The position numbers and the translations under genes were made by a program. Shown here piece after piece: positions 3,201 to 63,785 of a DNA stretch of 64,000 nucleotides; the first letter of the stretch is position 1, and every line of letters starts with the position of its first letter. Below the pieces are notes generated by a model. The model did not search any database. It was given only the letters and a program-made list of their open reading frames with translations, and was not told where the DNA came from. Origin of the DNA: Raja brachyura (Eukaryota); contig OY740793.1 of assembly GCA_963514005.1 (NCBI GenBank), forward strand, positions 44,578,001-44,642,000. The letters run 5' to 3'.

Positions 3201-3567
3201 GGATTTATCACAGTCGCTGCCTCAAAAAGGCTGGCAGCATCATCAAGGACTCACACCACCCTGGCCACACACTAATCTCCCTGCTACCTTTGGGTAGAAG
3301 GTACAGGAGCCTGAAGACTGCAACAACCCGGTTTAAGAATAGCTACTTCCCCACAGCCATCAGGCTATTAAACCTGGCTCGGAACTCTGAACATTAATAT
3401 CCCTCCATCTGTTATTTGCACTTTATTAATTTATTAAGTCATGGGTGTATTTATGTATAGAATTGTAGTCAATGCCTTCTATGTTCTGTTGTGCTATGCA
3501 AAGAAAGATTTTCATTGTCCTGTCAGGGACACATGACAATAAACTCTTTTGACTCTTTTTGACTTTA
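254..3567 (+). mobile_element. Rex1/Babar-clade LINE, apparently full length, inactivated by frameshifts and a stop
   Basis: 5' AAGATGGCG (YY1-like) at 267-275. APE endonuclease ORF 472-1572 (FTETW, GDFN, LDHCY). RT pieces at 1541-2041, 2097-2834 ([21 protein letters not shown]) and 2837-3397. The 3' tail is AATAAA followed by TTGACT-like repeats. AAT is duplicated at 251-253 and 3568-3570. Confidence 0.92.
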
Positions 3568-8600: not shown

Positions 8601-10339
8601 ACGACTGTTGTGCCAGGTTTAGTACAAACCACATCATGAAGTACACAGATGACACAACAGTGGTGGGCCTCATCAGGGACGACAATGAGCTGGCTTACAG
8701 GGAGGAGGTGAAACAACTGGCGGACTGGTGCAATACGAACAACCTGATCCTGAATGTCGAGAAAACAAAGGAGGTTATCGTCAACTTCAGGAAAACCCGG
8801 CACAGTCCCACACCACTTCACATCAACGACAGCGATGTGGAGGTGGTCAGTAGCACAAAGTTCCTGGGGGTGCAGATCACTAACAGTCTGACCTGGTCGA
8901 ATAACATCTCATCAACTGTTAAGAGAGCGCAGCAGCAGTTGCACTTTCTGCGCCGGATGAGAAGAGCTCATCTCCCCCATCCCATCCTCACTACTTTCTA
9001 CAGGGGCACCATAGAGAGTATTCTGACCAGCTGTATCTCTGTCTGGTTTGGGGACTGTAGAGCCTCCGACTGGAAGTCTGTGCAGAGAGTGGTGAGGACA
9101 GCGGAAATAATCATCGGGACCTCTCTCCCCCCAATCGGGGATATTGCGACCAAACGCTGTGTGTTTAAGGCCAGCAGTATTATAAAGGACCCCACACATC
9201 TCCATCACGGACTGTTCACTCTGCTGCCCTCGGGAAAAAGATACCGCAGCATAAGGAGCAGAACATCAAGGTTCCGCAACAGCTTCTTCCCACGAGCCAT
9301 CAGACTCCTGAATGCCATGTAATGGGCTGCCACCATTGTCTATTTATCCTTTTCATCCATGCCTATCCTTCGGTTAATTTATTGTGTTGCACAGGGAGCC
9401 AAATGCAACGTAATTTCGTTTGGAACTGCATATATCAATGTATTTCTAAATGACAATAAAGTTTGTTTGACTTTTTTTTACTTTGAGGAGGTTGCAGGGG
9501 GACCTGGACAGGTTGAGTGAGTGGGCAGTGTAATATAGATAAATATGAGGTTATCCACTTTGGCGGCAAAAACAAGGGGGCAGATTATTATCCCATTGGG
9601 GTTAGGTTAGGTAAGAGGGAGGTACAGCGAGACCTGGGTGTCCTTGTACACCAGTCTCTGAAAGTTGGCATGCAGGTACAGCAGGCAGTGAAGAAAGCTA
9701 TTGAAACGTTGGCCTTCATAACAAGAGGATTTCAGTACAGGAGTAAAGAGGTTCTTCTGCAGTTGTATAGGGCTCTGGTGAGACCACATCTGGAGTATTG
9801 TGTACAGTTTTGGTCTCCTAATTTGAGGAAGGACATCCTTGTGATTGCAGTGCAGTGTAGGTTCACGAGATTGATCCCTGGGATGGCGGGACTGTCATAT
9901 GAGGAAAGATTGAAAAGACTAAGCTTGCATTCACTGGAGTTTAGAAGGATGAGGGGGATCTTATAGAAACATATAAAATTATAAAAGGACTGGACAAGCT
10001 AAATGCAGGAAAAATGTTCCCAATGTTGGGTGAGTCCAGAACCAGGGCCCACAGTCTTAGAATAAAGGGGAGGTCATTTAAGACTGAGGTCAGAAAAAAC
10101 TTTACCCAGATAGTTGTGAATTTATGGAATTCCCTGCCACATAGGGCAGTGGAGGCCAAATCACTGGATGGATTTAATAGAGAGTTGGATAGAGTTCTAA
10201 GGGCTAGTGGAGTCTTGTATGGGGAGAAGGCAGGCACGGGTTATTGATAGCGGATGATCAGCCATGATCACAATGAATGGAGGTGCTGGCTCAAAGGGCC
10301 GAATGGCCTCCTCCTGCACCTATTTTCTATGTTTCTATA
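5697..10339 (+). mobile_element. CR1 LINE (RT to 3' tail), split by a Rex1 insertion at 6635-9485
   Basis: CR1 RT motifs [51 protein letters not shown], and the 3' tail TTCTATGTTTCTAT. The halves 5697-6634 and 9486-10339 rejoin as GATGTTAGGAGGTTGCAGG. Confidence 0.9.
6635..9485 (+). mobile_element. Rex1/Babar-clade LINE, second subfamily, 5'-truncated, nested in CR1
   Basis: APE ORF 6618-7643 (LTETW, GDFN, SDH) and RT ORF 8024-9322 ([21 protein letters not shown]). The tail is ACAATAAA...TTTGA. AGG is duplicated at 6632-6634 and 9486-9488. Confidence 0.92.
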
Positions 10340-15007: not shown

Positions 15008-16442
15008 TAAAGGGCACTGAAAGGACAGTAAAACCACTCACAGTTTAGTAGATATGTGTTCAGTATTATTCACAGCTCAGACTGAGACGTGACCCTCTCG
15101 CTCCCCCATCTTGCAGAGACTGACTGAGGCACTCAACACTTCTGGGTTTTATAGTCCCTCCGGAAGGGGCGTGGCCTTCAGGAGAGAGAATCTCAACGTA
15201 TTTTAAACACTAATAACTCTTTTATTTTTAATCGATGGGAAAAATCCTCTTGTCCTGCGCAGCGGAGGGGGACTGTGAGTAAGGTGGCGAAAAATCACAG
15301 CCGTAAGTGGCAGCATTTTAAAAAAAAATCAATATACAGAACAACAAGAAGTGGTCAAGATCAGACTTTTAGTAATATAGATTATTCAGCACGAGGGCGC
15401 TGTTACTTTTTCTAAATAGCTTAATTAATTAGTGTGCAATTTGTTTTTACACTGACGAGTTATGAATTCCTTATCAATTTGTTTTTACACTGACTAGTTA
15501 TGAATTCCTTATATAGAAACATAGAAAATAGGTGCAGGAGGCCATTCGGCCCTTCTAGCCAGCACCGCCATTCATTGTGATCATGGCTGATCGTCCCCTA
15601 TCAATAACTCGTGCCTGCCTTCTCCCCATATCCCTTGACTCCACTAGCCCCTAGAGCTCTATCTCGTGAATCTACGCTGCACTGCCTCAATCACAAGGAT
15701 GTCCTTCCTCAAATTAGGAGACCAAAACTATACTCCAGATGTGGTCTCACCAGAGCCCTATACAACTGCAAAAGAACCTCTTTACTCCTATACTGAAATC
15801 CTCTTGTTATGAAGGCCAACATTCCATTTGCTTTCTTCACTGTCTGCTGTACCTGTAAGCCAACTTTGAGTGACCGGTGTACAAGGACGCCCAGGTCTCG
15901 CTGCACCTCCCCCTTACCTAACCAAACCCTGTTGAGATAATAATCTGCCCCCTTGTTTTTGCCACCAAAGTGGATAACCTCCCATTTACCTATATTATGC
16001 TGCATCTGCCATGCATCTGCCCACTCACTCAACCTGTCCAGGTCACCCTGCAACCTCCTAACATCCTCTTCACAGTTCACACTGCCACCCAGCTTTGTGT
16101 CATCCGCAAATTTGCTAGTGTTGCTCCTAATTCCCTCTTCCAAATCATTAATATATATGGTAAACAGTTGCGGCCCCAACACTGAGCCTTGCAGCACTCC
16201 ACTCGCCACTGCCTGCCATTCTGAAAAGGACCCGTTCACTCCTACTCTTTGCTTCCAGTCTTCCAACCAATTTTCTATCCATGCCAACACCCTACCCCCA
16301 ATACCATGTGCTTTAATTTTAGTCACCAGTCTCCCGTGCGGGACGTTATCAAAGACTTTATGAAAGTCTCGATTCACTACATCCACTGGTACCGCTTCAT
16401 CCATTTTACTTGTCACATCCTCAAAAAATTCCAGAAGATTAG
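15008..16442 (-). repeat. Inverted duplicate of the CR1 + spacer + Helitron 5' segment (6246-6634 and 9486-10843), lacking the Rex1 insertion
   Basis: The reverse complement matches across the CR1 tail/spacer/Helitron junctions. ORF 15709-16530 has an uninterrupted CEEDVRRLQGDLD. Confidence 0.85.
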
Positions 16443-16907
16443 ACAATTCCAGAAAATTCGACAGTGTCATTTTTGACACTGGACTCATATAATCGTTGAT
16501 GGAGCTCGCTAAGGTTGGAATAGCATACAAACAGGCCCTTGAGGATTGCTTTCATTTCTGTCCCCACCACCTCCCCAGGCAGCGTGTTCCAGGCATTCAC
16601 CACCCTTAAAAATCACCTTTAAACTTTCCCCCTCTCACCTCAAAGTCCGGTAGAGTTGTGTCTATTGTCATTTTCACAAGTATGGCGAGGCCCAATGAAA
16701 ATTTTCCTAGCGGCATCATCACATGAACATACATTCAGACAACACACAAAAACATGAACACTCTTCAAGACAGCAAAACATCAAATAAAGACATTTATGC
16801 AAAACACAATGAGATGAGAAAAACGATGCCGGCTAGTATTTGAGTATTTGACATTTCCAGCAAGAGAAAAATGGTTCTGTTGCATACCCTATCTCAGTCT
16901 CTCTACA

Positions 16908-17964: not shown

Positions 17965-20340
17965 TTGTCAACTACTATCAGGTCTCCTCTCAGCTTCTGA
18001 TGCTCCAGAGAAAACAATCCATTTTGGTCAACCTTTCCTTATAGGTAATACTTTCTAATCCAGGAGCTTTCTGGAAAACCTCTTCTGCACCCTCTCCAAA
18101 GCCTCCGCATCCTTCCTGTAATGAGACCAGTGCACATAATATTCCAAATGCAGCCTAACCAAATTCCTATAAAACTGCAACATGTTTCTCCAACTTTTAT
18201 ACTCCATTCCCTAATCAATGAACCATGCATATCATATGCCTTTCCTTAACCATCCAATCAACATGTGTGGTTACCTTCAGGAAGCTAGGTACCTGGACCC
18301 CAAGATCCCTCTGCACATCATTGCTATTTAAGGTCCTACCATTTATTGTATACTGTTCGCTTACATTTAAACACTCATAGTGAAACACCTCAGACTTGTC
18401 CAGATTAAATTCTGTCATCTCTCTGCCCATATTTCCAGCTGATCTATGTCCTGCTGTACCTTACCACCTTCCGCACTGTCTACAACTCCACCAATTTTCA
18501 TGTTGTCTTCCAACTTTTATGCACGCTTTGATAGGGAGAACACTGATGTGCCTTCCCGAGTCCCCATTCGCTGTGATGGTATTTCAGTCTCAGTCACAGT
18601 GGCCGATGTCAGGAAATCCTTCAGAGGGGTGAACCCTCGAAAAGCGCCTGGACCTGATGGTACACCTGGTCGTGTTCTAAAAACCTGTGCGGACCAATTG
18701 GCTGGAGTTTTTACGGACATTTTCAACCTCTCACTTCTGAGGTCTGAGGTTCCCACCTGCTTCAAAAGGGCATCAATTATACCAGTGCCCTAGACGAACA
18801 AGGTGACGTGCCTCAATTATCAACCTGTGGCACTAACGCCTGTGGTGATGAAGTGCTTCGAGAGGTTGATCATGGCGCAAATCAACTGCTACCTCAACAA
18901 AAACCTGGACCCACTGCAGTTCGCTTACTGCCACAACAGATCAACAGTGGATGCGATCTCACTGGCTCTCCACTCCGCTCTGGACCACTTGGACAACAAA
19001 AACTCATATGTCAGGCTGTTATTCATCGATTACAGCTCGGCATTTAACACAATCATCCCCTCCAAGCTGGTTACCAAACTCGCAGAACTGGGTCTCTGCG
19101 CATCCCTCTGCAATTGGATCCTCGACTTCCTCATTCACAGACCACAGTCTATTCGTATTGGTGGAAATGTGTCACTCTCGATAAAAATCAGCACGGGAGC
19201 ACCTCAAGGCTGCGTGCTCAGCCCCCTGCTGTACTCTCTCTATACTCATGACTGTATAGCCGGTCACAGTGCGAACTCCATCATCAAGTTCGCTGACGAC
19301 ACCACTGTTGTGGGACGGATCACTGATGGGGATGAGTCGGAGTATAGAAGAGAGATCGAGCAACTGTCCGTATGGTGCCAGCACAATAACCTGGCCCTCA
19401 ACACCAGCAAAACCAAGGAACTGTTTGTGGACTTTGGAAGGAGTAGGATGGGGACCCTCAGTCACGTTTATATCAACGGGTCGATGGTTGAAAGGGTCAA
19501 GAGCTTCAAATTCCTGGGCGTGCACATCTCTGAAGATCTTTCCTGGTCCGAGAACACTGATGCAATTATCAAGAAAGCTCATCAGCACCTCCACTTCCTG
19601 AGAAGATTACGGAGAATCGGTTTGTCATGGAGGACTCTCTCTAACGTCTACAGGTGCACAGTAGAGAGCTTGCTGCCTGGTTACATCGTGGCGTGGTTCG
19701 GCAACTTGAGCGCCCTGGAGAGGAAAAGACTACAAAAAGTAGTAAGCACAGCCCAGTCCATCATCGGTTCTGACCTTCCTTCCATCGAGGGGATTTACCG
19801 CAGTTGCTGCCTCAAAAAGGCTGGCAGTATCATCAAAGTCCCACACCATCCTGGCCACACACTCATCTCCCTGCTACCTTCAGGTAGAAGGTACAGGAGC
19901 CTGAAGACTGCAACAACCAGATTCAGGAATAGCTACTTCCCCACAGCCCTCAGGCTATTAAACTGGCTTGGACAAAACATTAATAACCCATAATCTGTTA
20001 TTTGCACTTTATTAGTTTATTTATTCATGTGTGTATATATTTATATAATGGTATATGAACACACTGATCTGTTTTTGTAGTCAATGCCTACTATGTTCTG
20101 TTGTGCTGAAACAAATCAAGAATTTCATTGTCCCATCAGGGACACATGACACATGACAATAAACTCATTTGAACTTGAATTTGAACAACCTGAAATAATC
20201 AGACCTCCACATTTTCATGCAGGTACATTTTTACCTTGATGAAAGTCTTGAGGTAGACGATAGTCCCTGGCCATCATCTATTGGACTTGACTTGCACCAA
20301 GACTTTCTCTCTTTATAGACCACTATCTTTACCTATAAAG
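17965..20340 (-). mobile_element. Old CR1 fragment, split by the Rex1 copy at 18515-20186
   Basis: Degenerate CR1 RT motifs at 17965-18514 (EFNLDKSEVFH, VQRDLGVQV), continuing at ~20187-20340. Confidence 0.65.
18515..20186 (+). mobile_element. 5'-truncated Rex1 copy of the same family as 254-3567
   Basis: Colinear with ~1925-3565. RT ORF 18803-19993 with KFADD. (TTGAAC)n tail. (C)AAC duplicated at 18511-18514 and 20186-20189. Confidence 0.92.
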
Positions 20341-24477: not shown

Positions 24478-25638
24478 ATGTCCGGCCTCGGTAACGCCAC
24501 CAGCCCCTGCCTGGAGTCAGCGACCCGGGGCGCGACCGCCGCCGCTCTGCTGGAGCTGGGCTTGGGCTCGGCCGTGCTGTGCGCCTCGCTGCTGGGGAAC
24601 GGCCTGGTTCTGGCGGTGTTCCGGAGCAGGCCGCAGCTGCTCCACGTGGCCAACCGCTTCGTCTTCAACCTGCTGCTGGCGGACCTGTTGCAGACGCTGC
24701 TGGTGATGCCGCTGGCGGTGGCGGGCAGTGTGCCCGGGCTCCGACCCCTCGCCGGCGGCCTGTGCAAACTGCTGGTGGTCTCTCTGCATCTGTTCGCCTT
24801 CGCCGGCGTCCACAGCACGGTGCTGGTGTCCATCGACCGCTACCTGGCCATCATGCACCCCTTGTCCTACCCCGCCCGCATGACGCCCCGCCGGGCATCC
24901 AGCCTGATCGCGCTGAGCTGGGCGCTGGGCGCTGCACAGAGCACGCCGCCGCTCTACGGCTGGGGCCGGGTGGCCGCTGACGGCTGCTCCTCCTGCCGCC
25001 TTCTCTGGGCCTCCAGCCCCTCCTACACGCTGCTCACCGCGCTGCTCGCCTTCTGGCTGCCGGCCGGCATCATGCTCCGCTGCTACTGGCTGGTGTTCCG
25101 GGCGGCTCGGCGACAGAACGCCCGGGTGCAGCCGGCGCTGGCCCGGAGCCCGGGCGGGGAGAAGCGCCGGGGTCGGGGCCCGCCTCGCCGCTCCCATTGC
25201 AAGGCAGCGCGGGTGGTGTTCGTCACCGTGGCCTCGCACCTCCTAGGCATGGGCCCATACAGCGTCCTGGGCACCGTGTCGGCGGCCGGGGCCCAGCCAC
25301 CCGCACCCTGGCTCGGCGCCGCCGCCCTCATCCTGCTGCATTCGCGGTGCTGCGCGCACCCCTACATCTACGGGTACCTCCACCGGGGCATCCGCCGGGA
25401 GCTGCTCCTCCTCCTGCCCGCCGCCTGCTGCCGCCCACCGGCGCCCGGCCTCTCGCCCTCCACCCCGACCGGCGCCAGGGCTCCCCGGGCCGCTCCCCGC
25501 GTCTCTGCCCCGACATCCTGGGCAGAGGCTTCGGTCACTGCAGCCGCGGCCACTGGCGGCCGCAGGGACACCGTGTCGACCAGCTGCAGCTCAGACAACG
25601 AGCTGCACCTCCTGCCCGGTCACAGGGCCGACCGGTGA
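24478..25638 (+). CDS. GPR101: Orphan class A GPCR GPR101, single coding exon, 386 aa
   Basis: Seven TM segments with GPR101 signatures: RPQLLHVANRFVFNLLLADLLQ, HLFAFA, SIDRYLAIMHPLSYPARMT, QSTPPLYGWG, W..SPSYT, AARRQ, HCKAARVVF, GPY, CCAHPYIYGYLH. N-glycosylation site NAT. Confidence 0.95.
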   Translation: MSGLGNATSPCLESATRGATAAALLELGLGSAVLCASLLGNGLVLAVFRSRPQLLHVANRFVFNLLLADLLQTLLVMPLAVAGSVPGLRPLAGGLCKLLVVSLHLFAFAGVHSTVLVSIDRYLAIMHPLSYPARMTPRRASSLIALSWALGAAQSTPPLYGWGRVAADGCSSCRLLWASSPSYTLLTALLAFWLPAGIMLRCYWLVFRAARRQNARVQPALARSPGGEKRRGRGPPRRSHCKAARVVFVTVASHLLGMGPYSVLGTVSAAGAQPPAPWLGAAALILLHSRCCAHPYIYGYLHRGIRRELLLLLPAACCRPPAPGLSPSTPTGARAPRAAPRVSAPTSWAEASVTAAAATGGRRDTVSTSCSSDNELHLLPGHRADR

Positions 25639-25979
25639 CGGGACCGGGGATGGGGCAGGGACCGGGGATGGGACCCCCGACCGGCGACAGGACACAGACT
25701 GGGGACGAGACCGGTGACATGACCCGGGCCGGGGATTGGACCTAGACCGGTGATGGAACCAGAACCAACGAGTGACCCAGACCAGGGCTGGAACTATGGC
25801 CCAGGGCCTGGACCGAGAGCGGGACCGCAGTAGGACCAGGGTGCAGGGTCCGTGTCATCGCCAGCCCTGGCTACACTCGCTGTTTACACCTGTGTAGTTT
25901 GTTGTCATTTAAATGTTGCCGGTATCCGTGAGAACTTATTTTTATGGATAGTACGTCATAACCTTTCTATCAATGCTGG

Positions 25980-25985
25980 AATAAA
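25980..25985 (+). promoter_or_regulatory. Candidate GPR101 polyadenylation signal
   Basis: First AATAAA after the stop codon, ~340 nt downstream. Confidence 0.45.
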
Positions 25986-26241
25986 TCGGGGCAGCTGTGC
26001 GCGGTTAAAGTTCCTGGGACGTCTGATCCTGAACTACCCGGTACTGACCCGAAGGGGGGGGGGGGGGGGGAGGAGAGTTGACCTGTGTGAAGGTGCTCGT
26101 GTGACAGAAGGTGTTCTGTTTTGGTCACCCTGTCATAGGAAAGATGCAATTAAACCGGGAGGTGTATAGAGAAGATTTATGAGGTTGGTGCTTGCACTGC
26201 AAGGAGATGTTGAGTGGGCTCGGACCGAGAGGAGCTTTGTT

Positions 26242-26677
26242 AAAGAAGGAACTGCAGATGCTGGAGAATCGAGGGTTACACAAAAAGCTGGAGAAACTCA
26301 GCGGGTGCAGCAGCATCTAAGGAGCGAAGGAGATAGGCGACGTTTCGGGTCGAGACCCTTCTTCAGACTGCTCTTCGTAGGGAGGAAGAGAACTTCTTCA
26401 AAGTAGGCATACCTTGAGGAGATATCGCACTGGAGTAGACAAATTGTTAAAGAAGGAACTGCAGATGCTGGAGAATCGAGGGTTACACAAAAAGCTGGAG
26501 AAACTCAGCGGGTGCAGCAGCATCTAAAGAGCGAAGGAGATAGGTGACGTTTCGGGTCGAGACCCTTCTTCAGACTGGGCAGTCTGAAGAAGGGTCTCGA
26601 CCCGAAACGTCGCCTATCTCCTTCGCTCCTTAGATGCTGCTGCACCCGCTGAGTTTCTCCAACTTTTTGTGTAACCC
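26242..26677 (-). mobile_element. Non-autonomous Penelope insertion: two tandem terminal repeats plus an inverted copy, with three hammerhead motifs
   Basis: 17-bp TSD CCGAGAGGAGCTTTGTT (26225-26241 / 26678-26694). Repeat period 207 nt. Core CTGAAGA-AGGGTCTCGACCC-GAAACGTC. Confidence 0.82.
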
Positions 26678-26779
26678 CCGAGAGGAGCTTTGTTGCCAAT
26701 TCTTACCGCCTGAGGTCTGCCGGTGATGGAGGATCCTGTTGCGGAGCGACGAGCAGAGAGCCAATTTCCTGAGTTTATT

Positions 26780-27400
26780 CCTTAGAGCGCAGGAGGATGA
26801 GGGGTGATCTTACAGAGGTGTATAAAATCCCGAGAGGAATAGATCAGATTGCCCAGCGTAGGTGAATCGAGGGCCAGAGGACAGAGGTTTATGGTGAAGG
26901 GGAGAAGATTTAATAGGAATCTGAGGGGTAACTTTTTCACACAAAGGGTGGTGGGTGTATGGAACAAGCTGCCAGAGGAGGTAGTTGAGGCTGGGACTAT
27001 CCCAATGTTTAAGAAACAGTTAGACAGCTACATGGATAGGTCTGAAGAAGGGTTTCGGCCCGAAACGTTGCCTATCTCCTTCGCTCCATAGACGCTGCTG
27101 CACCCGCTGAGTTTCCCCAGCATTTTGTGTAAACCCTTGATTTTCCAGCATCTGCAGTTTCTTCTTTAACACATGGATAGGACAGATTGGGAGGCATACG
27201 GACCAAACGCAGGCAGATGGGACTTAGAGGTTGGGCAGACTAGGACTTTATTCATTGGAGTACAAGAAGCTGTGGGGTGATCTTACAGAGGTGTATAAAA
27301 TCATGAGGGATATGGATACGGTGAATGCAGTTTTTCACCCAGAGTATAGGAATCATGAATTAGTGGACATACGTTTAAGGGGAGAGGGAACAGATTTAAC
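26780..27400 (+). mobile_element. CR1 3' fragments, the first interrupted by a Penelope mini-insertion
   Basis: [38 protein letters not shown] and RLGLYSLEYKKLWGDLTEVYKIM. Confidence 0.75.
27035..27076 (+). ncRNA. Type I minimal hammerhead ribozyme motif at the 5' end of a 130-bp Penelope insertion (27041-27170)
   Basis: Helix I GAUAGGU/GCCUAUC, core CUGAAGA, helix II GGGU-UUCG-GCCC, GAAA, palindromic AACGUU with a GUU cleavage triplet. 11-bp TSD ACATGGATAGG (27030-27040 / 27171-27181). Confidence 0.7.
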
Positions 27401-28851
27401 AAGAATTTTGTTCCATCATGTTAGAGGCTACCCGCCAGGGACATCACCCATTGCCTTGCGTCACATTCTGATATGGTCTCAATCTTCATTCTGCTCACGG
27501 ACACGGTGTGGTCTCTGGGATGGTACAGTGCACCAGCCCAATGCTGCAGAATGTTTGTGAAACTGCTGCTGCAGCGAAGGAAGGAGGTTGACATAAACGG
27601 GCAACACACTGACCACTGGGATTATCACAGAAGTATTGGTCCGAAGGCTGCAGTCACAAGTCGGGAATAGACATGTGGCAATAGGCATTACATCCCACAG
27701 TGCACGGGGTGATCTGTTTACCCCAAGAGTGCAAGGTTATGTCCTGTCATTTTTGATACTCTTATTGAAAGATAGCTATTATTAAAAGTAAAATTCAACA
27801 AATGCTTCGGGGGGAAGTGTCATTAATTAATTGACTTACCTGTAACAATATTGAAGCATCATGTGGCTAATGTTTTGGTGGTTGGTGAAATGGTGCCTGA
27901 TAATGGCTGAGAAAGACAGAAGAGGGCCAAGATAGACAGGAGCGGAGCGAGTAGTTCAAAGTCAGGATACGACAGGACTGTTGTCTGGGAATGAGAGGAT
28001 AAAGATCAGCAGGAGATGGCAACAGTGGAGCACAGCTGGTGCAGGGACATGCCGCCAATAGCAGCACATGACCCATGTTGTACCCATGGACTGCAGGGTG
28101 TAAGAGGGGGGCAGTCTGTAAGCAAATACCAGATGTGCTCATCTTCCCTTCCCCCAATCACAGACTGACTTGCTTGACATTCCCTACATATCTGCTTTTT
28201 GCAGCTTTCACTTTCCTTTGTACTTTTTGTAGTGGCCATTTGGCTTGTTTTGCATGTCATTGATGATGGCGTGGGTCTTTAAATTTTAGACTGCCCGTTA
28301 TATTGAGGGTGGGATTTATGGCGTATTTCTGGGCGTGTTCTGGACTATATCTTGCGCAGAAGGTTAGTTTTTAGTTTAGTTTGGAACAAGCATGGAGAAG
28401 GTTTACCCTTCAACCATGCGAAGTGTAACGAGGAGTTTTCTAATGTTTAAAGCAATAAGCTGGAGTTCGATGAAGATTATAGTAACGTCTCGGAAGAAGT
28501 TTGGATGTACCTTATTGTTTTCATCAATGAATAAAGAATTTATTAATCAAAAGACTGTGTTTTTGAAGACTTATCTGTGAAGAAGCTCGGAATGTCTCAG
28601 ATGGTGAGCTCGTCCTGATTGAAATCTACTTGCAAGGGTGTAGATAATAGACATGCGAGATCCCTGGTCCTCAGTAGACACACACAAATAACAACTGGCC
28701 TCGGGTTGTTACCTTGCACCGGTCGCTGTTCACCACCTGAGATGTGATTATACAGGTTAATAAAACATAATATTGTGTAATCGAATCAGCATCAATTAGA
28801 TGAAACAGTAATGTTTAAGAACTGCACACGTGATAAGTGATTCATCTCAAG

Positions 28852-29786: not shown

Positions 29787-32700
29787 CTGAAATAAAAGAA
29801 AGCAGCATTAGTTAATTACCTAAGATAGCACTGATGATGCTTTTCCCCCCCAATATCTTTACAATCTCCCGTGAACGGTAGAACCAAGATTTCAAATTGT
29901 ACCAGCGGTACTATTGGCAACTTGATCACATGGCTGGCTTGGAATAAGATTGCATTTTATGAGCAAGTGAAAAATACTGTTCACAACTGATTTTGTCAAC
30001 AAATATTTGAACCATCATTTCTTTGATCCTTCACTTAATTTCTTACTGTTTGCAGGACTATTTTCACGTCAGCACAATGGACGAGCAATATTCTGCTAAT
30101 GTTGAACTATTTGTGTTTTACTTTCAGAAGGTCCTCAAGTGTAAAGTTTCTAATAGGTTCCTTCAGCCAGTGTTTGGAGGGAGTGCTGCAGTGTCCCAGC
30201 TACAACACTTCAGATGAAAGGTTCAGGTTGTCCTCTCCACTATACAAGCAGAAAGTCGTCATACTACCAAAGAGTATAAACACACATGTAATTTCGACAT
30301 GGTGAAACCAAAATGTATAAAAATACCCTTTAATAAAATCTGACAATGTGCACTTTAACCACATGTGAGTTTTATTTTCTATTACAAATCTCAAATCGTG
30401 GAGTACAGATGCAAATAAATAAATGATGGGTCTTTGTCCCAAACATTATGGAGGGCACTGTATCAGTGACCACCTTAGTTGGGATTATAGATGGTGGTGA
30501 AGCCAGATTCAGGCAATGGTCCACAGATGCCCAGTTATCATCTAACTCGGCACAATGGTAGTAGCAGACAACAAGGAGGGGTCTTCACCAGGACAGTGCA
30601 ACGGTCACTTCTGCTGCTGTGGTCATGGACATGTGTATCAACAGCAGGAAAGTACAAGATCCAGCACTTGTCCCTTGTTTCACATCACCGCCAGGGGTCC
30701 AGCTCTACTCTTCAGGGGTTGGCCACTGACGGACACAAAAATTCCCCCCTAATCCCACTACATTTGCCTGTGCTAATCTTTCTTGTTGGTCCAAATAGCA
30801 AACTGGAGGCCATAACTGATAATGAAGTTTTTGTCCATGTTGGAGCCTATCCTGCGAGAGCTGAGCGTGGAGGATTCTGAATGCCACACCATGCACACTG
30901 CTCCCTTGTACTCGAGAGGTCTGTCCTGCACTGGAAGAGGATATCATTACAGCGTAGGATGAAAGAATGCCTGGCACATTACAACTATGATCACAAGTTC
31001 CAAGACATGCTGTTTGGCTAATTTGGAATAGTTGAATGTCAGGAAGTGTTCATTACTGCAGTCTGAGAATAGGATTGGTTTGCTAGGCCATGTCATCGGC
31101 AGCCTGTAGCTCACATTCACCCAGATTTATTTCCAAAAAGCTCTTGTAGGCCAAGGGATTGTAAACAACCAACCATTGGTTAACATATGCCTTTTCTGAT
31201 GTTGGCGTTTTATTCCACCACACAAGTGACTGAATCTTATTTCTGCGACTGCTGTGGTGGGATCCGAACACATCTTTAGCACAGTTCCTCAATGATTAGA
31301 CTACTGGTAAGTCACAATGCACGAAATCTACTCAGGAAGACAATGCTGCAGTGTGCATCATCATTCAATCAGTATATTCATGGTTGAGAGAAAGATTACT
31401 GGCCAGGGAAAGAATGGAGGAAGAGCATAAATGTGCCGTAGAGACAAATGTTTTGCCAAAATCTTATTGATTGTTGAACCAGGCTAGAAGTGCAGAGTCT
31501 ATTGTTGCTTTGTTTCAATATTGATGCACGACTGTAACCTTACCACTGCCTGACAATTTGCTCCAGACTGTCAATTTTTGTACAAGCAAACTATATTCAA
31601 CCCAACTATTGTAGCAAGATAATCACCTTATCTTGTAGCAAGATAACCATAGCGTCTCTTCAGTAATTATCTATTTGCTGCAAGAATTATCAGTCAACTC
31701 TATTCATTCCAGGAAAGTCTCCATATTTCTTGGACATCTATCACAAACATGTTATGACATTTTGTTGTCTTCTGCAACAGCACCATTCAGTTGGGCTGAT
31801 TGCAATTAGACTAAGTAATTGAAGTGTCTGGGTGTTTCAAAGGTCAGCTATCATGTGAGAGATTCTGGAGAAGGATCACAGTGGTGCTGCAGTTAGTGTT
31901 GTTGCCTCATGCACCAGGGTTTGATCCTGACTTCTGGCAGTGCCTGCAAGAGGTTTGACTCTGTGGGTTTCCAACAGAATACGCACGTCACAAAGGATAT
32001 GCTGGTAGGTTAACTGGCTGCTGCAAAAGTGACAAAATAGTTAAGGGGTTCTAATGGGTACGTGAGGAAGGAAAACCCTCAGGAGAATACGAGATCGAAT
32101 GGGACTTTAGCTAGAACCTAATATGGACCCAATGAGCTGAATGGCCATAATAAGAACCTACATTTCCTGCTGATAGAATATTTGTCACCTTCAGCAACAA
32201 ACCTGGAGCCACTAACCTGGAGCCACTGTCCCCAGGTGGAGTAGGGATCAAACTTCCCTGCAAATCACCGGGCTTTCTGTTGCAAGTTGGATAAGTGCCC
32301 ACCTTATTATACCCGAATTAAGCAACACTTTAATAGTTCAGTAAACAACAGTGTTTGAATGGATGTGTTTGTATGAAGCACAAGGGCTGAGTTGTCAAAT
32401 ACTGCACAAATACTCAATTAGATGAGAAACTAATTAATTTATCAGCCTCAGTTGTAACTCAGATTTAACAAAATAAATATGCTGCAAGGATAAAAATTGT
32501 TTGCAAGCAATACAAACTGAATGTCAGACAAACACTTATTCCCATGACAGTCTGACTTGTGGCAGAAATTATATCATCTTTCCCACATTAAATGAAAGCC
32601 AGATAACTCTTGCAACTCTGCTTTGGCTTTAACACACAACTGATGTCCGCAGCCGATTCTTGGGTAATCTCATCTCCTCCAACCTTATCTATTGCATTCG

Positions 32701-35700
32701 CTGCTCTAGGTGTCAACTGCTCTACATCGGTGAGACCAAGCACAGGCTTGGTGATCGCTTTGCCCAACACCTCCGCAAAGTTCGCATTAACGAACCCAAT
32801 CTCCCGGTGGCTCAGCACTTCAACTCCCCCTCCCATTCCGTAACCGACCTTTCTGACCTGGGCCTCCTCCATGGTCAGTGTGAGTCTCACTGCAAATTGG
32901 AGGAGCAGCACCTCATATTTCGCTTGGGTATTGTACACCCCAGCAGTATGAAGTCATTCTCCAATTTCAGGTAATCCTTGCTTTCTCCCTCCTTCCCCTT
33001 CCCAGCTTTCCCACAGCCCACTGTCTCCGCCTCTTCCTTTCTTCTTCCAGCCCCCCCCCCCCCCACCACCACCCCTACATCAGTCTGAAGAAGGGTATCA
33101 ACCCGAAACGTCATCCATTCCTTCACTCCGTAGATGCTGCCCCACCCGCTGAGTTTCTCCAGCATTTTTGTCTACCTTGGGTAGATACAGTGCCCTCCAT
33201 AATATTTGGAACAAAGACCCATCATTTATTTATTTGCCTCTGTACTCCACAATTTGAGATTTGTAATTGAAAAACTCACATGTGGTTAAAGTGCACATTG
33301 TCAGATTTTAATAAAGGCCATTTTTATACATTTTGGTTTCACCATGTAGAAATTACAGCAGTGTTTATACATAGTTCCACCCCATTTTGGGGTACCGTAA
33401 TGTTTGGGACACAGCAATGTCATGTAAATGAAAGTAGTATTTTGTATTTTGTTGCATATCCTTTGCAAACAATGACTGCATGAAGTCTGCGATTCATGGA
33501 CATCACCAGTCGCTAGGTGTCTTCTCTGGTGATGCTCTGCCAGGCCTGTATTGCAGCCATATTTAGCTTAAGCTTGTTTTGGGGGCTAATCCCCTTCAGT
33601 TTGCTCTTCAGCATATAAAAGGCATGCTCAATTGGGTTCAGATCGTGTGATTGACTTAGCCACTCAAGAATTGAACATTTTTTGCTTTGAAAAACCCCTT
33701 TGTTGCTTTAGCAGTATGTTTGGGATCATTTTCTTGTGGTAGAATTAACTGTCAGCCAATGAGTTTTGAGGCATTTGTTTGAACTTGAGCAGACAGGATG
33801 TGTCTATACACTTCAGAATTCATTATGCTACTATCATCAGCAGTTGTGTCATCAATGAAGATAAGTGAGCCAGTACCTTCAGCAGCCATACATGCCATAA
33901 CACCCCACCACTGATTCACAGATGAGGTGGTGTGCTTTGGATATTGGGCAGTTCCTTCTCTCCTCCATACTTTGCTTTTGCCATTACTCTGTTATAAGTT
34001 AATCTTCATCTCATCTGTCCACAAGACCTTTTTCCAGAACTCCAGTTGCTCTTTTAAGTACTTCTTGGGAAACTGTAACCTGGCCATCCTATTTTTGGGC
34101 TAACCAGTGGTTTGCATATTGCAGTGTAACCTCTGTATTTCTGTTAATGAAGTCTTCTGCAGACAGAGGCCATTGACAAATCCACACCTGACTACTGAAG
34201 AGTGTTTCTGATCTGTCGGACAGGTGTTTGGGGATTTTTCTTTATTAGGGAGAATTATTCCATCATCAGCTGTGGAGGTCTTCCCTAGCCTGCCAGTCCT
34301 TTTGCGATTATGAGCTCACAAGTGCTCGCTTTCTTCTTAATGATGTTCCAAACAGTTGATTTTGGTAAGCCTAAGGTTTGGCTGATGTCTCTAACAATTT
34401 TATTTTTGTTTCTCAGTCTCATAATGGCTTATTTGACTTATATTGGCACAATTTTGGTCCTCATGTTGATCAAAAGCAATAAAAGTTTCCAAAGGTGATG
34501 GAAAGACTAGGTGCTGAGAACTCCCCTATACTCAGGAGGCAATTAAACACACCTCAGCAATTACAAATGCCTGTGAAGCCATTTGTACCAAATATTATGG
34601 TGCCCTGAAAGGGGGGGGTGGGGGAGGGGGGGGGGGGGGGGGGAGGGATGGACGGACTATGTATAAATACAGCTGTGATTTCTACATGGAGAAACCAAAA
34701 TGTATGAAAATGCGCTTTAATAAAATCTGATAATGTGCACTTTAACCACGTGATTTTTTTTTCTATTGCATATCTTAAATTGTGTAGTACAGAGGCAAAT
34801 AAATAAATGATGGGTCTTTGTCTCAAACATTATGGAGGGCACTGTAACAACCCAGGGGCCAGCAGAACAGGAGCATTGGGGATATAATATCAAGTTTTCA
34901 CTGAGGAGAAAGAATCAGGAGCAAAGATTCATTAAATCATCTCTGGATTATGAATGAATGAAAAAGTTAATTGGCCAAGTATTCACATACAAGGAATTTG
35001 CCTTGGTGCTCCGTGCGCAAGTGGCAACATGACATACAGTGACAGTTAGGAATGACACAAAACAATAAACATTAATAATAAATTATTTAAAAAAAATTCT
35101 TGCGTCACATCCTACTGAGTACACAAATAGGAGGATAGCAGGCCAGGTGATGCAAGAGGAATGCCTTTACATTCGCGGCCATTGGGAAAGGCTCTGGGAA
35201 AAGTGCCAGCTGCATGACGCCATCAGATTTCCCCATGACAGGACTGGGATCAGTATCCTCATCGTCAGGCTTCAGGCTTGCTTGTGCGGTTTGAGTAGAG
35301 TTCAACATGCTTGGTAGGAAAACCGAGTGCAAATTCAAAAGAGAAAAGCAATACTGGAAATGGATGGCACAGCAAACAATGAATAGAAAATAGGCAGAGT
35401 GACCTTGTGGTGCTTGGTTGTATAAATAAATGCAAATGCATGTAAATGCAAAGTACTGATGGTGGAAATCTGAAAATCAACAATTATAGTGTATACTCAG
35501 AACATCAGGTAGCAGCTGCCGAGAAAAACAGGGTAGCATACAAACATAGAGGAAACATAGAAAATAGGAGTAGGCCATTCGGCCCTTCGAGTCAGTAGCG
35601 CCATTCAATATGATGACGGCTGATCATCCAAAATCAGTAATGCGTTCTGGCTTTTTCCCCCAGATTCCTCGATTCCTTGCGCCTTAAGAGCTAAATCAAA

Positions 35701-38700
35701 CTCTCTCTTGAAACCATCCACTGCCCTTTGTGGCAGATAATTCCACAGATTCACAACTCTTGGGGTAAAAAGGTTTTTCTTCATCTAGGACCTAAATGAC
35801 CTAACCCTTATTCTTAAACTGTGACCGTACCCCTGGTTCTGGACTCCAACATCAGGAACATATTTCCTGCATCTAGTCTGTCCATTAATCCATTCCTTTA
35901 AGAATTTTATATGTTTCTATAAGATCCCCTCTCATCCTTCTAAATTCCAGCAAAACAAGCCCAGTCGACCCATTCTTTCATCATACTTCAGTCAAACCAT
36001 CCCGGGAATTAATCAATATTCCAGATTAATCCTCCTCAATAGCAATAATGTCATTCCTCAAATTAGGAACCCAAAATTGCACATAATACTCCAGATGCGG
36101 TCTCACCAAGGCCCTGTGCAACTGCCGTAGGACCTCCTTGCTCCTAAACTCAAATCCTCTCACAATGAAGGCTGCCATGCCATTGGCTTTCTTCACTGCC
36201 TACTGTACCTGTATGCTTGCTTTCAGTGACTGAGGTACAAGCATACCCAGGTCTCATTGCACATCCCCTTCTCCCAATCTGATATAATTCAGATAATAAT
36301 CTGCCTTCCTGTTCTTGCCACCAAAGTGGATAACCTCACATTTATCCACATTATACTGCATCTGCCATACTTATGCCCACTCACCCAACCTATCCAACTC
36401 ATAGCATCCTCCTCGCAGCTCACAGTGCCACCCAGCTTTGTGTCATTTGCAAACTTAGATTTAATTCCCTTGTCTAAATCGTCAACAAATATTGTAAACC
36501 ACTGGAGTCCCAGCACCGAGCCTTGTGGCACCCCACAAGTCACTGTCTGCCATTCTGAAAAGGACCCGTTAATTCCTCCTCTTTGCTTCCTGTCTGCCAA
36601 CTAGTTCTCCATCCATGTCAACACCCTAACCCCAATATCATGTGCTCTAATTTTGCACACTAATCTCGTGTGGGACATTGTCAAAGGCTTTTTGAAAGTC
36701 CAAGTACCACATCCCACTGGCTCCCCCTTATCCATTCTACTTGTTACATCCTCAAAAAATTCCAAAACATTAGTCAAGTATGATTTCCCTTTCATAAATC
36801 TGCGCCGACTTTTGATTGATCCCATCACAGCTTTCCAAATGCACTACTATAACATCTTTAATAATCGACTCCAGCATCTTCCCCACTAACGATGCAAGGC
36901 TAACTGGTCTATAATTCCCTGTTTTCTCTCTCCCTCCTTTCTTAAAAAGTGGAGTTACATTGGCCACACCTCAAGTCCACAGGAACTGATCTAGAGTCGG
37001 GAGAAAATTGGAAAATGATCACCAATGCATCCACAATTTCTAGGACCACCTCCTTGAGTGCTCTGGGATGCAGACCATTTGGCCCTGGACATTTATCTGC
37101 CTTCAGTCCCAACAGTTTACCTAACACCATTTTCTGAGTAATGTGGATTCCATTCAGTTACTCCCTCCCACTAGATCCTCGGGGCCCCTAGTATTTCCGG
37201 GATCTTGTTTGTGACTTCCTTAGTGCTTTCCTTACTTCTCCGTGGATTGTCACCTTGTCGTGGTGGAGAAGCCGATATGGACCTGAGATCCTGAGACCAA
37301 TGTCATCTGGAGCTCTGCTCCTGGTAGGGTCACCCATGGCGGTAAGGTCGAGGGGGAGGTCTCTGACAAAGAATAATCCAACCAAGACCTCAATGGTGGA
37401 ACAAGCGAAGGACGATGGCTGACCTTAGTGGAGCGTCACAACGGCTGGGACGGCGATGAAGGCTGCAGCAAAAAAGGGTCTCTGGTCGTCTTGGAGTCCA
37501 TGCCACTGAATCCTGACCCTGATCTGTCAAGGACCGTGGGGTGACTGTCTGTGCACCAGTCTCCCCATGTTAAATAAAATCACGCACTGGCATCCTCCAT
37601 AAAGGAAATAGCACCCTAGAGACATCCATGGTCAACCATGACCGAAGGGGGCTTAAGAAGACTTCCTTAGTGAAGACAGAACCAAAGCACTTGTTCAACT
37701 GTTCTGCCATTTCCTTGTTTCCCATTACAAATTCACCTGTCTCTGACTGGAAGGAACCTATATTTGTCTTCACTAATCTTTTCCTTTTTACATGCCTATA
37801 GTAACTATTAGTTTTTAATATTTCCCGCAAGCTTTCTTTCAAACTCTTCCCCCCCTCTTAATTAACCCCTTTGTCCTCCTCTGTTCAGTTCTAAATTTCT
37901 CCCAGTCTCCCGATTTGCTGCTTCTTCTGGCCTCTTCCTTGGCTTCAACACTATCCTTAACTTCCCTCATCAGCCACGTTTGTGCTGCCTTTCTAGGTTT
38001 TTTTTTGGCCAGACAGACAAAAGACAATTCGGTCATTCAAACCAGCACCGCCATTCACAGTGATCATGGCTGATCATCCACAATCAGTACCCCGTTCCTG
38101 CCTTCTCCCCACATTCCTACATCTTTAAGAGCTCTAACTCTCTCTTGAAGGCATCCAACGAATTGGCCTCCACTGCCTTCTGAGGCAGAGAATTCCACAG
38201 ATTCACAAATCCCTGGGTGAAAAGGTTTTTCCTCATCTCTGTTCTAAATGGCCTACCCCTTATTCTTAAACTGTGGCCCCTGGTTCTGGACGCCCCCAAC
38301 ATTGGGAACATGTTTCCTGCCTCTCGCAAGTCCAATCCCTTAATAATCTTACATGTTTCACTAAGATCCCAGTCGCTCCATTCTATCAACGTATGACAGT
38401 CCCGCCATCCCGGGAAACAATTTTTGGAGTTCATCCATGCAGCCTTTACATCTTTGCCATTGCAACTACACTGTCAACCCTTTAAATATAATTTGTCAGT
38501 CTATCCTGGCTAATTTCTGTCCCATATCTTCAAAGTCTCCTTTATTCAAGTTCAGGACTCTAGTCTGAAACAACCGTGTCACTGTCTATCCTAATGCAGA
38601 ATTCCACCATATTATGGACACTGTTGCCCAAGGGGCCTTGCACAACAGGTCTGAAGAAGGGTTTCGACCCGAAACGGTGCCTATTTTCCTGCGTGATGCT

Positions 38701-61009: not shown

Positions 61010-62400
61010 TTAGAACATAGAACAGCATAGCACAAGACAGGTCCTTAGTCCCTCAATGTCTGTATCGAACATGATGCTAAGACCATCTCTTATCTGCCCG
61101 CACAAAATCGATATTCCTCAATCTCCTGCATCCATTGGCCTATCTAAAAGTATCTGAAAATCTCTTAAATTCTATCATCGTACCTGCCCCCAATACTATA
61201 CACAGCAGCAAGTTTCAGGCACTCAACTGTAAAAAAGTTGCCCCTCTCACCTTAAAGCAATGTCCTCGAGTATTTGAAATTTGCATCCTGTGAAAAGAGT
61301 GCTTGCTGACTGACTATTATATCGATCTATGCCTCTCCAAATATTATATACTTCTATTAAGTCTCTGTGCAACCTCTGATGTTCCAATGAAAATAATACA
61401 AATCTTTCCAACTTTTCCCCTGGCTAATTAATTGCCTCTAATCCAGGCATCATTCTAGTAAACCTCATCTGCACCCTTTTCAAAGCCTCTACATCCTTCC
61501 TGCAACAGAGCGACCAGAAGTGCACACAATTCTCCAAATGCAGCCTAACCGAAATCAAAAAGTTGCAAAATGACTTCCTGACTCTTGTGCAATGCCCTGA
61601 CCTATGAAAGCAAGCATACCACACACCTTTCAGGAAGTATGGATTAGACCCCAAGACCCCCGCCCCCCCCCCCCCCCGTACATCAATGCTGTTCACGGTC
61701 ATGTCATTAATTGTACATTTCCCCTTAAATTTGACCACCCAAAGTGCAACACCTCACACTCGCATGGATTAAACTCCACCCTCCATTTCTCATCCCATTA
61801 CTGTACCCCATCTATATTGAGCCGTACACTTTGATAGCCTTCTTCACAGTCCACAGCCCTAACAATCTTGGTGTGAACTGTTTACTTACCAACCAACCTG
61901 TCTGTGTTTATGTCCAAGTCATTTTTATATATCACAAAGGTCCTGGCACAGATCCCAACAGAACTCTAATGGTCACAACTACAACCTTCTGTCTTCTATC
62001 AGTAAGCCAATTCTGAATTCATATGATTAAATGACCGTTAATCCCTCGCATTTTAATTGTTTGGAATATAATTACTTCATTTATATCAGCAATTTGGCTG
62101 ATGGGATCAAATATAATTTCCATGATCGTTGATGATATAAAACTAGACGGTATTATGAGGAGGGAAGAGAATGCAAAGATACTTCACAGGATAAAGACAA
62201 GCTAAGTGAATAGGCAAATACAATATGATGTGGAGAAAAAGTGGGGTCTTTACGTTTTATGTAGAAAACAGAAGAGCAGGATTTTTTTTAAATGGCAAGA
62301 GACTGGGCAACAGACACGTTCAAAGGGATCTGGATGCCATTGTACACAAGTGACTGAAGCCAACGAGATGTATCATGCAGTTAGAAAGGCAAATTTTAAA
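61010..62400. mobile_element. Old CR1 fragments (- strand ~61010-62050, + strand ~62070-62400)
   Basis: VRLHLENCVHFWSLCCRKDVEALKRVQMRFTRMMPGL and related motifs. Confidence 0.65.
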
Positions 62401-62404
62401 ACAC

Positions 62405-63785
62405 AACTACCCTGGCAGACTCATTGTTTCTGCCTGCACCCTGTCCCACTGAAATGATTTCCACATACCTCGACTCCATCCTATCCCCCCCCCGGTCTAA
62501 TCTCTCCCAACCTCTGTCCACGATACCTCACATGCCCTTCGTCTCTTTAATGACTTCCGCTTTCCGAGCCCCCATTCCCTCATCTTTACTACGGACGTTA
62601 ATCTACACCTACATCCTCCACCAAGAAGGCCTTAAAGCACTTGGTTTCTTCCTCGACCGCAGAACCATCCAATTTCCCTCTACTAACACTCTACTCCCCC
62701 TATTGGTACTGGTGCTCACCCTTAACAACTTCTTTGAATCCCACTTCCTCCAAGTCCAAGGTGTAGCTATGGGCACCCGCATGGGCCCCAGTTATGCCTG
62801 TCTCGTTGGAGCGTAGGTTGAACAGTCCCTGATCCAGACGTACACTGGCCCCATCTCCAAACTCTATCTCCATTACATTGACTGCATTGGTGCTACCATC
62901 TGCACCCATGCAGAACTCATGCACTTCACCACCAATTTCCATCCTGCACTCAAATTTACTTGGACCATCTCAGACACCTCCCTCCCCTTTCTTAATCTCA
63001 CAGTCTCCATCACAGGAAATACACTATCGATTGACGTCTATTACAAACCCACTGACTCCCACAACTATTCTCGACTACACATCTTCCCATCCTGCTTCCT
63101 GCAAAGACTCTATCCCCTACTCCCTATTCCTCCATCTATGCCGCATCAGTGCCCAAGATGAGGTGTTCCATACCAGGACATCCAAGATGTCCTCACTCTT
63201 TAAGGAATGGGGATCTCCTCTCCCATCTTGGATGAGGCCCTCACTCGTGTCTCATCTTTACCATGCAGCTCCGCCCTTGCTCCCCTCCCCCTAGTCACAA
63301 CAGAGACATAGTTTCCTTAGCCCTTAACTTTCACCCTATGAGTTGTCGCATACAACACATAATCTTACAACATTTTCGCCACCTCCAACGGGATCCCAAC
63401 ATTAGTCACATCTTCCCATCTCCACCCATTTCCTCCTTCCGCAGAGACTATTCCCTCCGCAACTCCCTGGTTAACTCATCCCTTCCCACCCAAACCACCT
63501 CCTTCTCAGGTACCTTCCCCTGCAAACACAGAAGATGTAACACCTGTCCGAAGACCTCCTCCTTCGACTCTGTCCAGGGACCCCGACAGTCCTTTCAGGT
63601 TAGGCAGAGGCTCACTTGCACTTCCGCCAACCTCATTGTCCTTTATGTCTCTACATAATCGTCTATATCTCTCATTTCCCTTATCCCTAACCAGTCTGAA
63701 GAAGGGTCGAGCCAAAACGTCACCTATTCATTCGCTTCAGAGATACTGCCTGTCCCACTGAGTTACTCCAGCTTTTTGTGCCTAT
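62405..63785 (+). mobile_element. Penelope element (RT to terminal repeat), degenerate, internally deleted
   Basis: LQVQGVAMGTRMGPSYACL, SLPFLNLTV, DVYYKPTDSH and PCKHRRCNTC motifs. Hammerhead-like CTGAAGAAGGGTCGAGCCAAAACGTC at ~63695. Confidence 0.88.

What the first reader, a model, noticed from the sequence alone, without database searches (positions are those of the whole stretch)
26242..26677. Retrozyme-like tandem hammerhead unit (207-nt period) with an antisense third copy, just 3' of GPR101
Seen in the sequence: one insertion with a 17-bp TSD. It holds two head-to-tail Penelope terminal repeats on -, each with CUGAAGA-A-GGGUC(UC)GACCC-GAAACGUC and spaced 207 nt apart, plus an inverted copy on +. 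It has no ORF. Established: Penelope-like elements encode minimal type I hammerheads with a palindromic helix III that can cleave as dimers, and non-LTR retrozymes are short tandem units of this kind that produce circular RNAs. Inference: a transcript could be cut into a ~207-nt monomer, and the inverted copy would form a long hairpin. Caveat: helix I here is only about 2 bp (GU with GC or AC), so activity is uncertain.
Basis: partly seen in the sequence, partly recalled or inferred. Interest (0 to 1): 0.7.

Follow-up and report, generated by a model that had tools for sequence, protein, structure and literature searches.

The report
Truncated Penelope retrotransposon insertion, not retrozyme
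The repeat cluster beside the GPR101 gene is a young, heavily shortened insertion of a Penelope-type jumping gene, made of three copies of its end sequence and the first few codons of its own gene, and nothing shows that it is a separate family of circular self-cutting RNAs.

Summary
The structure is real: a 17-bp duplication flanks two direct terminal repeats (207-nt period, − strand) and an inverted third copy that lacks the 35-nt 'tail'. This is the published layout of Penelope-like element (PLE) insertions, and 4 of 5 other inverted pairs in the window follow it. The 'spacer' is the element's own leader plus the first 13 codons of its ORF (10 of 13 residues match a PLE protein N-terminus; 0 of 2000 shuffles as good). 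In contigs of four public runs the repeat and the spacer are both abundant, but only about 1–8% of spacer depth reaches the spacer-to-hammerhead junction, so no large amplified 207-nt family is seen (a small one is not excluded). Copies begin 1–4 nt before the hammerhead core, not at its cleavage site. The minimal hammerheads have a 2-bp helix I, are not predicted to fold, and one is trapped in a ~100-bp hairpin on read-through. Most likely an inert product of two-ended priming plus a template jump. The scan has noted this hammerhead repeat before in another ray-like genome. Retrozyme/circular RNA reading: unsupported, untested in RNA.

The parts
26225..26241 (.). Target-site duplication, left copy (last 5 nt shared with the element's tail)
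26238..26370 (-). Direct copy 2 of the PLE terminal repeat with tail (3'-most copy in element sense)
26238..26272 (-). 35-nt tail of copy 2 (presumed outer reverse-transcription start)
   Evidence: absent from the inverted copy; tail concept
26339..26366 (-). Minimal hammerhead core of copy 2; putative cut between 26339 and 26338; helix I 2 bp
26371..26444 (-). 'Spacer': element sequence that follows the tail, i.e. leader and ORF start
   Evidence: high-copy and contiguous with the tail in public contigs; not elsewhere in the window
26372..26410 (-). First 13 codons of the PLE ORF, cut off at the junction
   Evidence: 10 of 13 identical to residues 1-13 of P0087; 5 of 8 common variants synonymous
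26445..26577 (-). Direct copy 1 of the terminal repeat with tail; 2 substitutions against copy 2 (26545, 26528)
26546..26573 (-). Minimal hammerhead core of copy 1
26578..26579 (.). 2-nt head-to-head junction between copy 1 and the inverted copy
26580..26677 (+). Inverted copy 3, without tail; hammerhead core 26584-26611; 1 substitution against copy 2 (26662)
26678..26694 (.). Target-site duplication, right copy
24481..25641 (+). Neighbour: GPR101 coding sequence; AATAAA at 25980 lies upstream of the insertion
62390..63780 (+). Context: decayed PLE reverse-transcriptase and linker remnant that runs into the same kind of terminal repeat at 63692
   Evidence: tblastn E 1e-59 with P0016
32636..33174 (+). 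Context: GIY-YIG endonuclease remnant followed by the terminal repeat at 33081
   Evidence: Pfam PF01541 above cut-off

Best explanation
A single, young, abortive insertion of an endonuclease-bearing Penelope-like retrotransposon (Neptune/Nematis-type linker) in what is probably a skate or ray genome. Shown: the three repeats are the terminal repeat of an RT- and GIY-YIG-coding family, the spacer is that family's own ORF start, and one duplication flanks the whole. Inferred mechanism: the endonuclease made a 12-17-nt staggered cut; each 3' end primed reverse transcription inside the element RNA, one at the end of the tail and one 35 nt further 5' (hence one tailed and one tail-less arm); both cDNAs ended at the family's shared 5' boundary just before the hammerhead core, which looks like the transcription start; the tailed cDNA jumped once onto element RNA 73 nt past the tail (codon 13) and ran to the same boundary again, giving the 207-nt tandem; the two cDNAs were joined head to head. 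The product codes for nothing, its hammerheads are passengers, and any read-through RNA would mainly form a ~100-bp hairpin.
For: [quoted passage not shown] 4 of 5 other inverted pairs in the window have one tailed arm and a 12-15-bp TSD. RT and GIY-YIG remnants lead into the same repeat. Spacer peptide scores 51 at position 1 of P0087, next best 25 of 50,748 positions, 0 of 2000 shuffles; P0087 was found through the PLE core, not through the spacer. Common variants in these codons: 5 of 8 synonymous, 1 of 8 and 0 of 8 in the other frames. Depth at the junction is 1.7-8.2% of that at 26387 in 4 of 4 runs. All three copies start at the same base, where about 2,000 contigs of run X1 have loose ends; 13 of 23 window matches start within 6 nt of it, none at the cleavage site. 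Two internal RT starts a tail apart and extension of both strands were shown in vitro for an anole PLE.
Against: No host genome was held, so the junction was not counted in the window's own species; none of the four runs spans the stretch (best share of words 0.61) and the tool warns that contig depth is no copy number. The residual depth at the junction leaves room for a small subfamily. Copies 1 and 2 differ at 2 sites, one of them a common family variant, which could mean different template RNAs or an older master. One inverted pair in the window (44641-44816) has no tail and no TSD. The template jump, the two-ended priming and the transcription start are inferred, not shown; Arkhipova et al. 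favour self-priming on an antisense template for inverted junctions. The synonymous excess is modest (P = 0.03, 8 variants).
Confidence: 0.7

Rival explanations
1. The 207-nt tandem was copied whole from an existing internally deleted, non-autonomous PLE (terminal repeat - 73 nt - terminal repeat) that the autonomous element moves in trans as a linear RNA; the hammerheads play no part.
For: One pass of RT from the second tail to the 5' end of such an RNA gives exactly this arm. Residual depth with the window's letter at 26374 exists in all runs. Non-autonomous PLEs with head-to-tail copies and mobilisation in trans are described.
Against: The junction is at most 1.7-8.2% of spacer depth; no displayed contig piece crosses it (32 of 226,524 pieces shown); the spacer has no second copy in 64 kb that holds 23 matches to the repeat. 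It only moves the template jump back to the birth of the master.
Confidence: 0.17
2. A non-LTR retrozyme: the two hammerheads cut as a dimer, release a 207-nt monomer that is circularised and reverse-transcribed by PLE enzymes.
For: Two intact cores in tandem, 207 nt apart, palindromic helix III; all 16 pairs of a double hammerhead can be written. Size, GC 48% and long TSD fit metazoan retrozymes. Vertebrate retrozymes derive from pLTRs. A PLE hammerhead that was silent alone cleaved when the PLE protein was added. A 2-bp helix I has a precedent in D. virilis.
Against: Only 1.65 units; TRF finds no array. Cores are minimal, without tertiary loops; such motifs cleaved poorly even as dimers, and 1 of 9 Xenopus dimers cleaved. 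Stem II probability at most 0.04 in every context; the dimer fold lies 21.7 kcal/mol above the minimum. The circle is no more structured than shuffles (41 of 200 as stable). Rolling-circle RT gives no reason to stop at the same base as the solo copies. Junction rare.
Confidence: 0.07
3. A longer PLE inserted here and later lost its interior by deletion.
For: Internally deleted and rearranged PLE remnants occur in the window (52747-53720, 62390-63780).
Against: The break falls exactly on the family-wide 5' boundary, removing the whole natural upstream tract, and the insertion is young (3 substitutions in 364 nt).
Confidence: 0.05

Closest known systems
Endonuclease-bearing Penelope-like elements with tandem/inverted pseudo-LTRs and tail (Craig et al. 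2021 PMC8557442; Arkhipova et al. 2013 PMC3846280)
   Same: Two direct and one inverted terminal repeat inside a TSD; tail on one arm only; RT then GIY-YIG order with a cysteine linker in the window's remnants.
   Different: Only 13 codons of the ORF lie between the direct repeats; in this family the start codon lies 34 nt after the tail, whereas in the rotifer and anole elements the pLTR and tail include the ORF start.
[quoted passage not shown]
   Same: Core with extra nucleotide before stem II, G-C closing pair, palindromic CG at 15.2/16.2, no loop 3; dual motifs on opposite strands 100-700 bp apart were reported.
   Different: Stem II 4-5 bp and helix I 2 bp here, against 7-8 and 4-5 bp in the schistosome families; no chondrichthyan entry in the one supplement that could be searched.
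Non-LTR retrozymes (Cervera and de la Pena 2020 PMC7229834; Li et al. 2026 bioRxiv 10.64898/2026.07.22.740005)
   Same: Short non-coding unit with a type I hammerhead in each of two tandem copies, PLE-derived, long TSD.
   Different: Minimal rather than canonical hammerheads, under two full units, no amplified junction seen, inverted arm, no evidence of expression or circles.
Poseidon element PAc of Anolis (Frangieh et al. 2024 PMC11167929)
   Same: Two internal RT start sites that bound the tail; both target strands cut and extended.
   Different: In vitro work on another clade; here only the genomic footprint is seen.

Membership tests
EN+ Penelope-like element insertion | Terminal repeat belongs to an element coding RT and GIY-YIG | tested here: met
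   RT remnant 62390-63637 and GIY-YIG remnant 32636-32974 run into related copies of the repeat (81-87% alike)
EN+ Penelope-like element insertion | Partial tandem plus inverted copy at the 5' end | tested here: met
   pattern
EN+ Penelope-like element insertion | 30-40-bp tail on one arm only | tested here: met
   35-nt tail on direct copies, absent from inverted copy
EN+ Penelope-like element insertion | Target-site duplication | tested here: met
   12-17 bp; an empty allele was not seen
Neptune clade | Zn-finger-like linker between RT and EN; clade placement by RT tree | tested here: inconclusive
   CxxxxCxxC linker in the window remnant and in relatives; this is shared with Nematis; no tree was built
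min-HHR of PLEs | Conserved core, bulge before stem II, palindromic helix III | tested here: met
min-HHR of PLEs | Self-cleavage as a dimer | not testable with these tools
   folding argues against spontaneous activity; no Rfam hammerhead match up to E 5
Non-LTR retrozyme | Tandem array detected by TRF with a hammerhead in at least two consecutive units (Li et al.) | tested here: not met
   TRF with their settings: 14 rows in the window, none with period 40 or more; two cores are present but only 1.65 units
Non-LTR retrozyme | Canonical type I hammerhead with 6-bp helix I and loop 1/loop 2 contacts (Cervera 2020) | tested here: not met
   helix I 2 bp in all three copies
Non-LTR retrozyme | Unit amplified as a family | tested here: inconclusive
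   junction at most 1.7-8.2% of spacer depth in 4 runs of 3 coded organisms; own genome not held
Non-LTR retrozyme | Expressed as linear and circular monomers | not testable with these tools
   all 23 runs offered were contigs, none raw reads; contigs cannot show ends, strand or circles

The most novel reading that the evidence does not exclude
The insertion is a snapshot of how a non-LTR retrozyme unit is born in one reverse-transcription step: RT starts inside the 5' terminal repeat, stops at the RNA's 5' end (an initiator-like TCAGT directly before the hammerhead core, which would make the mass of solo repeats in these genomes 'strong-stop' cDNAs), jumps back onto RNA just past the tail, and so builds a hammerhead dimer that, helped by the PLE protein, can release a 207-nt circle.
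Probability: 0.1. Interest if true: 0.55.

Novelty: new member of a known kind. Interest (0 to 1): 0.2.

Why it matters
As it stands it is one more truncated Penelope insertion, useful mainly as a clean footprint: two RT start sites, a shared 5' stop and one template jump can be read from 436 bp. How PLEs form tandem and inverted copies is an open question, and the sharp 5' boundary before, not at, the hammerhead cut site argues that cleavage does not define the template ends in this family. If the dimer did release a circle, it would show the step from PLE to retrozyme that Li et al. infer from phylogeny.

Tried and rejected
Rfam scan of 25000-28000 gave only microRNA-type matches to the perfect hairpin, all below gathering score, and no hammerhead family: rejected as artefacts of the inverted repeat. 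Pattern scans found nothing: spacer and repeat in metagenome contigs, repeat in viral contigs. No whole genome. Look-up of earlier findings by sequence and by place: nothing. The first row of alignment A1 was translated in the wrong frame and is ignored; only the other five rows are used. Expression: run X16 holds repeat and spacer, but it is only guessed to be RNA and is contigs, so it is not used as evidence of transcription; the thin cover of 26205-26230 is not used as evidence of an empty site. Role in GPR101 mRNA: copies 1 and 2 are antisense to it, copy 3 is paired in the hairpin, and an AATAAA lies 245 nt upstream of the duplication; not tested further. A splice-acceptor reading of the 5' boundary (pyrimidine tract + CAG) was considered: loose ends there share no common upstream exon (agreement 0.31-0.40), so spliced templates are not supported. 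Paper searches for a description of this family or of the 5' boundary gave no such paper in their listings; most subscription papers and Repbase are not covered, and the supplements of Li et al. 2026 (chondrichthyan retrozyme families) and file 1 of PMC4209133 were not seen.

Full report
Observation. The 17-bp match is beyond chance (300 random flank pairs scored at most 10). The last five letters of the element's tail equal the end of the duplication, so the cut stagger is 12-17 nt. The three copies differ by 3 substitutions in 364 nt: a young insertion. Each copy has the minimal hammerhead core with a 4-5-bp stem II, the palindrome ACGU in place of helix III, and a 2-bp helix I. The neighbour is GPR101, ending at 25641, with AATAAA at 25980. 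The host is probably a skate or ray: the best named relatives of a window endonuclease fragment are Leucoraja erinacea proteins, 71% and 66% identical; this is inference.

What the repeat is. It is not special to this site: 23 blastn matches to the 133-nt repeat lie in the window, and 76,256-78,892 contigs per DNA run were laid on the 386-nt stretch 26075-26460, nearly all on the repeat. Related copies follow a GIY-YIG remnant (32636-32974, Pfam above cut-off) and an RT remnant with a CxxxxCxxC linker (62390-63637, tblastn E 1e-59). So the repeat is the pseudo-LTR of an endonuclease-bearing PLE with a Neptune/Nematis-type linker; I built no tree. The layout is the one that Craig et al. (PMC8557442, passages) give as typical: partial tandem, inverted 5'-truncated copy, and a 30-40-bp tail on one end; Arkhipova et al. 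[quoted passage not shown] In the window, 4 of 5 other inverted pairs have exactly one tailed arm and a 12-15-bp duplication (40287, 47349, 52747, 60608; two of them with one mismatch); the fifth (44641-44816) has neither.

What the spacer is. The 73-74 nt between the direct copies carry an ATG at 26410 and 13 codons. A search seeded only with PLE core sequence returned P0087, whose residues 1-13 match this peptide at 10 of 13 positions; score 51 against a next best of 25 among 50,748 positions of 156 proteins, and 0 of 2000 shuffled peptides reached it. P0087 matches all 25 proteins of 750 aa or more in that set further in; one of them, P0016, bears RT and GIY-YIG matches (the GIY-YIG score is just below cut-off) and has a similar MPTLK start at residue 25. 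Of the 8 common variants that one search lists in these codons, 5 are synonymous (expected 26%, P = 0.03), against 1 of 8 and 0 of 8 in the other frames. In public contigs the spacer is itself abundant (0.5-3.2% of peak repeat depth) and contiguous with the tail (X4 record 32). The spacer is therefore the element's own sequence after the tail, cut at codon 13.

Is the unit a family? Summed contig depth falls from 100,781 at 26387 to 2,254 at 26374 in X1, and most of the remainder reads another letter; the ratios are 2.2, 5.7, 1.7 and 8.2% in X1, X4, X11, X16. No displayed piece crosses the junction, but only 32 of 226,524 pieces were shown. Limits: depth is no copy number, counts were saturated in X1 and X11, I laid 4 of 23 listed runs, and none is shown to be the window's species (best share of words 0.61). 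A large amplified 207-nt family is thus unlikely; a small subfamily is not excluded. TRF with the settings of Li et al. finds no tandem here.

Where copies begin. All three copies start at the same base, 4 nt before the core. Loose ends pile up there: 298, 479, 412 and 814 contigs at 26367-26370 in X1, with similar rows in X4, X11 and X16, and little agreement among the loose letters (24 of 1,252 rows shown; the 26370 row includes copies that run on into the natural upstream tract). No displayed row marks a 5' end at the cleavage site. In the window 13 of 23 matches start within 6 nt of this base (3 of them continue into the element's own upstream sequence) and none starts at the cut site. The natural context reads TCAGTCT, which fits the initiator consensus YYANWYY (recalled); an Inr-like motif and an internal promoter in pLTRs are reported (passages). 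A transcription start is my inference; an RT stop at this near-palindrome is an alternative.

Would it cleave? On read-through from either side the inverted copy forms a ~100-bp hairpin (z = -21.8) that swallows one hammerhead. Even without it, stem II has probability at most 0.02, because the core pairs with the 3' arm; forcing the double hammerhead costs 21.7 kcal/mol (the model ignores core and protein contacts, so this is overstated). The 207-nt monomer is no more structured than shuffles (linear 32 of 200; circular 41 of 200). Published tests agree: min-HHR dimers cleaved weakly (PMC4209133, parts 1-2 of 4), 1 of 9 Xenopus dimers cleaved (Li et al., parts 1-3 of 5). Against my reading: the anole PLE hammerhead cleaved once the PLE protein was added (PMC11167929, parts 1-2 of 4), so activity in a ribonucleoprotein is not excluded. 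Expression, cleavage and circles could not be tested: every run offered was contigs.

Mechanism. Frangieh et al. showed that a PLE protein cuts and extends both target strands and starts RT at two internal sites that bound the tail. Applied here (inference): one nick primed at the tail end, the other 35 nt further 5'; both cDNAs ended at the shared 5' boundary; the tailed one jumped to element RNA at codon 13 and ran to the boundary again; the heads were joined with 2 extra bases. A circular template would not explain why copy 1 stops at the same base as solo copies. Rivals: a pre-existing deleted master (0.17), a true retrozyme (0.07), a later deletion (0.05).

Comparison and verdict. It meets the structural tests for a PLE insertion and for the min-HHR motif, and fails two tests for a non-LTR retrozyme (canonical hammerhead per PMC7229834, part 2 of 6, passages and Discussion; TRF array per Li et al.). 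PMC6155905 and PMC6431247 were seen as passages only. Searches listed no paper on this ray family or on the 5' boundary; coverage is partial and the supplements of Li et al. were not seen. Earlier notes of this scan reached the same kind of verdict for this repeat in another genome; they are unchecked and add no independent support. Verdict: real, ordinary, a new member of a known kind; interest 0.2.

Noticed in passing
window 27030-27181 (+): Solo tailed copy with an 11-bp TSD; the duplicated target letters give it an 8-bp helix I and its minimum-energy fold is the hammerhead shape. It is the best-formed motif seen in the window, sense to GPR101, 1.4 kb after its stop; still lacks helix III as a monomer.
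   Followed up: partly
window 26367-26370 and equivalent sites; runs X1, X4, X11, X16: Family-wide sharp 5' boundary 1-4 nt before the hammerhead core, in an initiator-like context, rather than at the cleavage site.
   Followed up: partly
run X4 joints 26364-26371 to 26325-26339; run X11 joint 26370 to 26243: Contigs show ~38-nt head-to-tail repeats of the hammerhead alone and spacerless head-to-tail repeats of the whole terminal repeat; these may be better retrozyme-like candidates than the finding.
   Followed up: no
window 26330-26378, 26537-26577, 26580-26620, 53580-53632, 63680-63732: In 5 of 7 folded copies the core and 5' strand of stem II pair with the 3' arm, an alternative hairpin that may be a conserved off-state.
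   Followed up: no
window 52730-53741: Inverted PLE insertion with 13-bp TSD, endonuclease-end coding on both arms and one tailed arm.
   Followed up: partly
window 44641-44816: Inverted pair whose arms overlap on the near-palindrome before the core, with no tail and no TSD found: the exception to the one-tail rule.
   Followed up: partly
window 403-3397, 6615-9322, 15709-16551, 18794-19993, 38560-39252: Open frames that look like LINE endonuclease and reverse-transcriptase pieces (identity recalled, not tested).
   Followed up: no
window 24481-25641: GPR101 here has a short third intracellular loop and lies in a GC-rich island (69% GC); the match to human GPR101 covers residues 31-216 best.
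   Followed up: no
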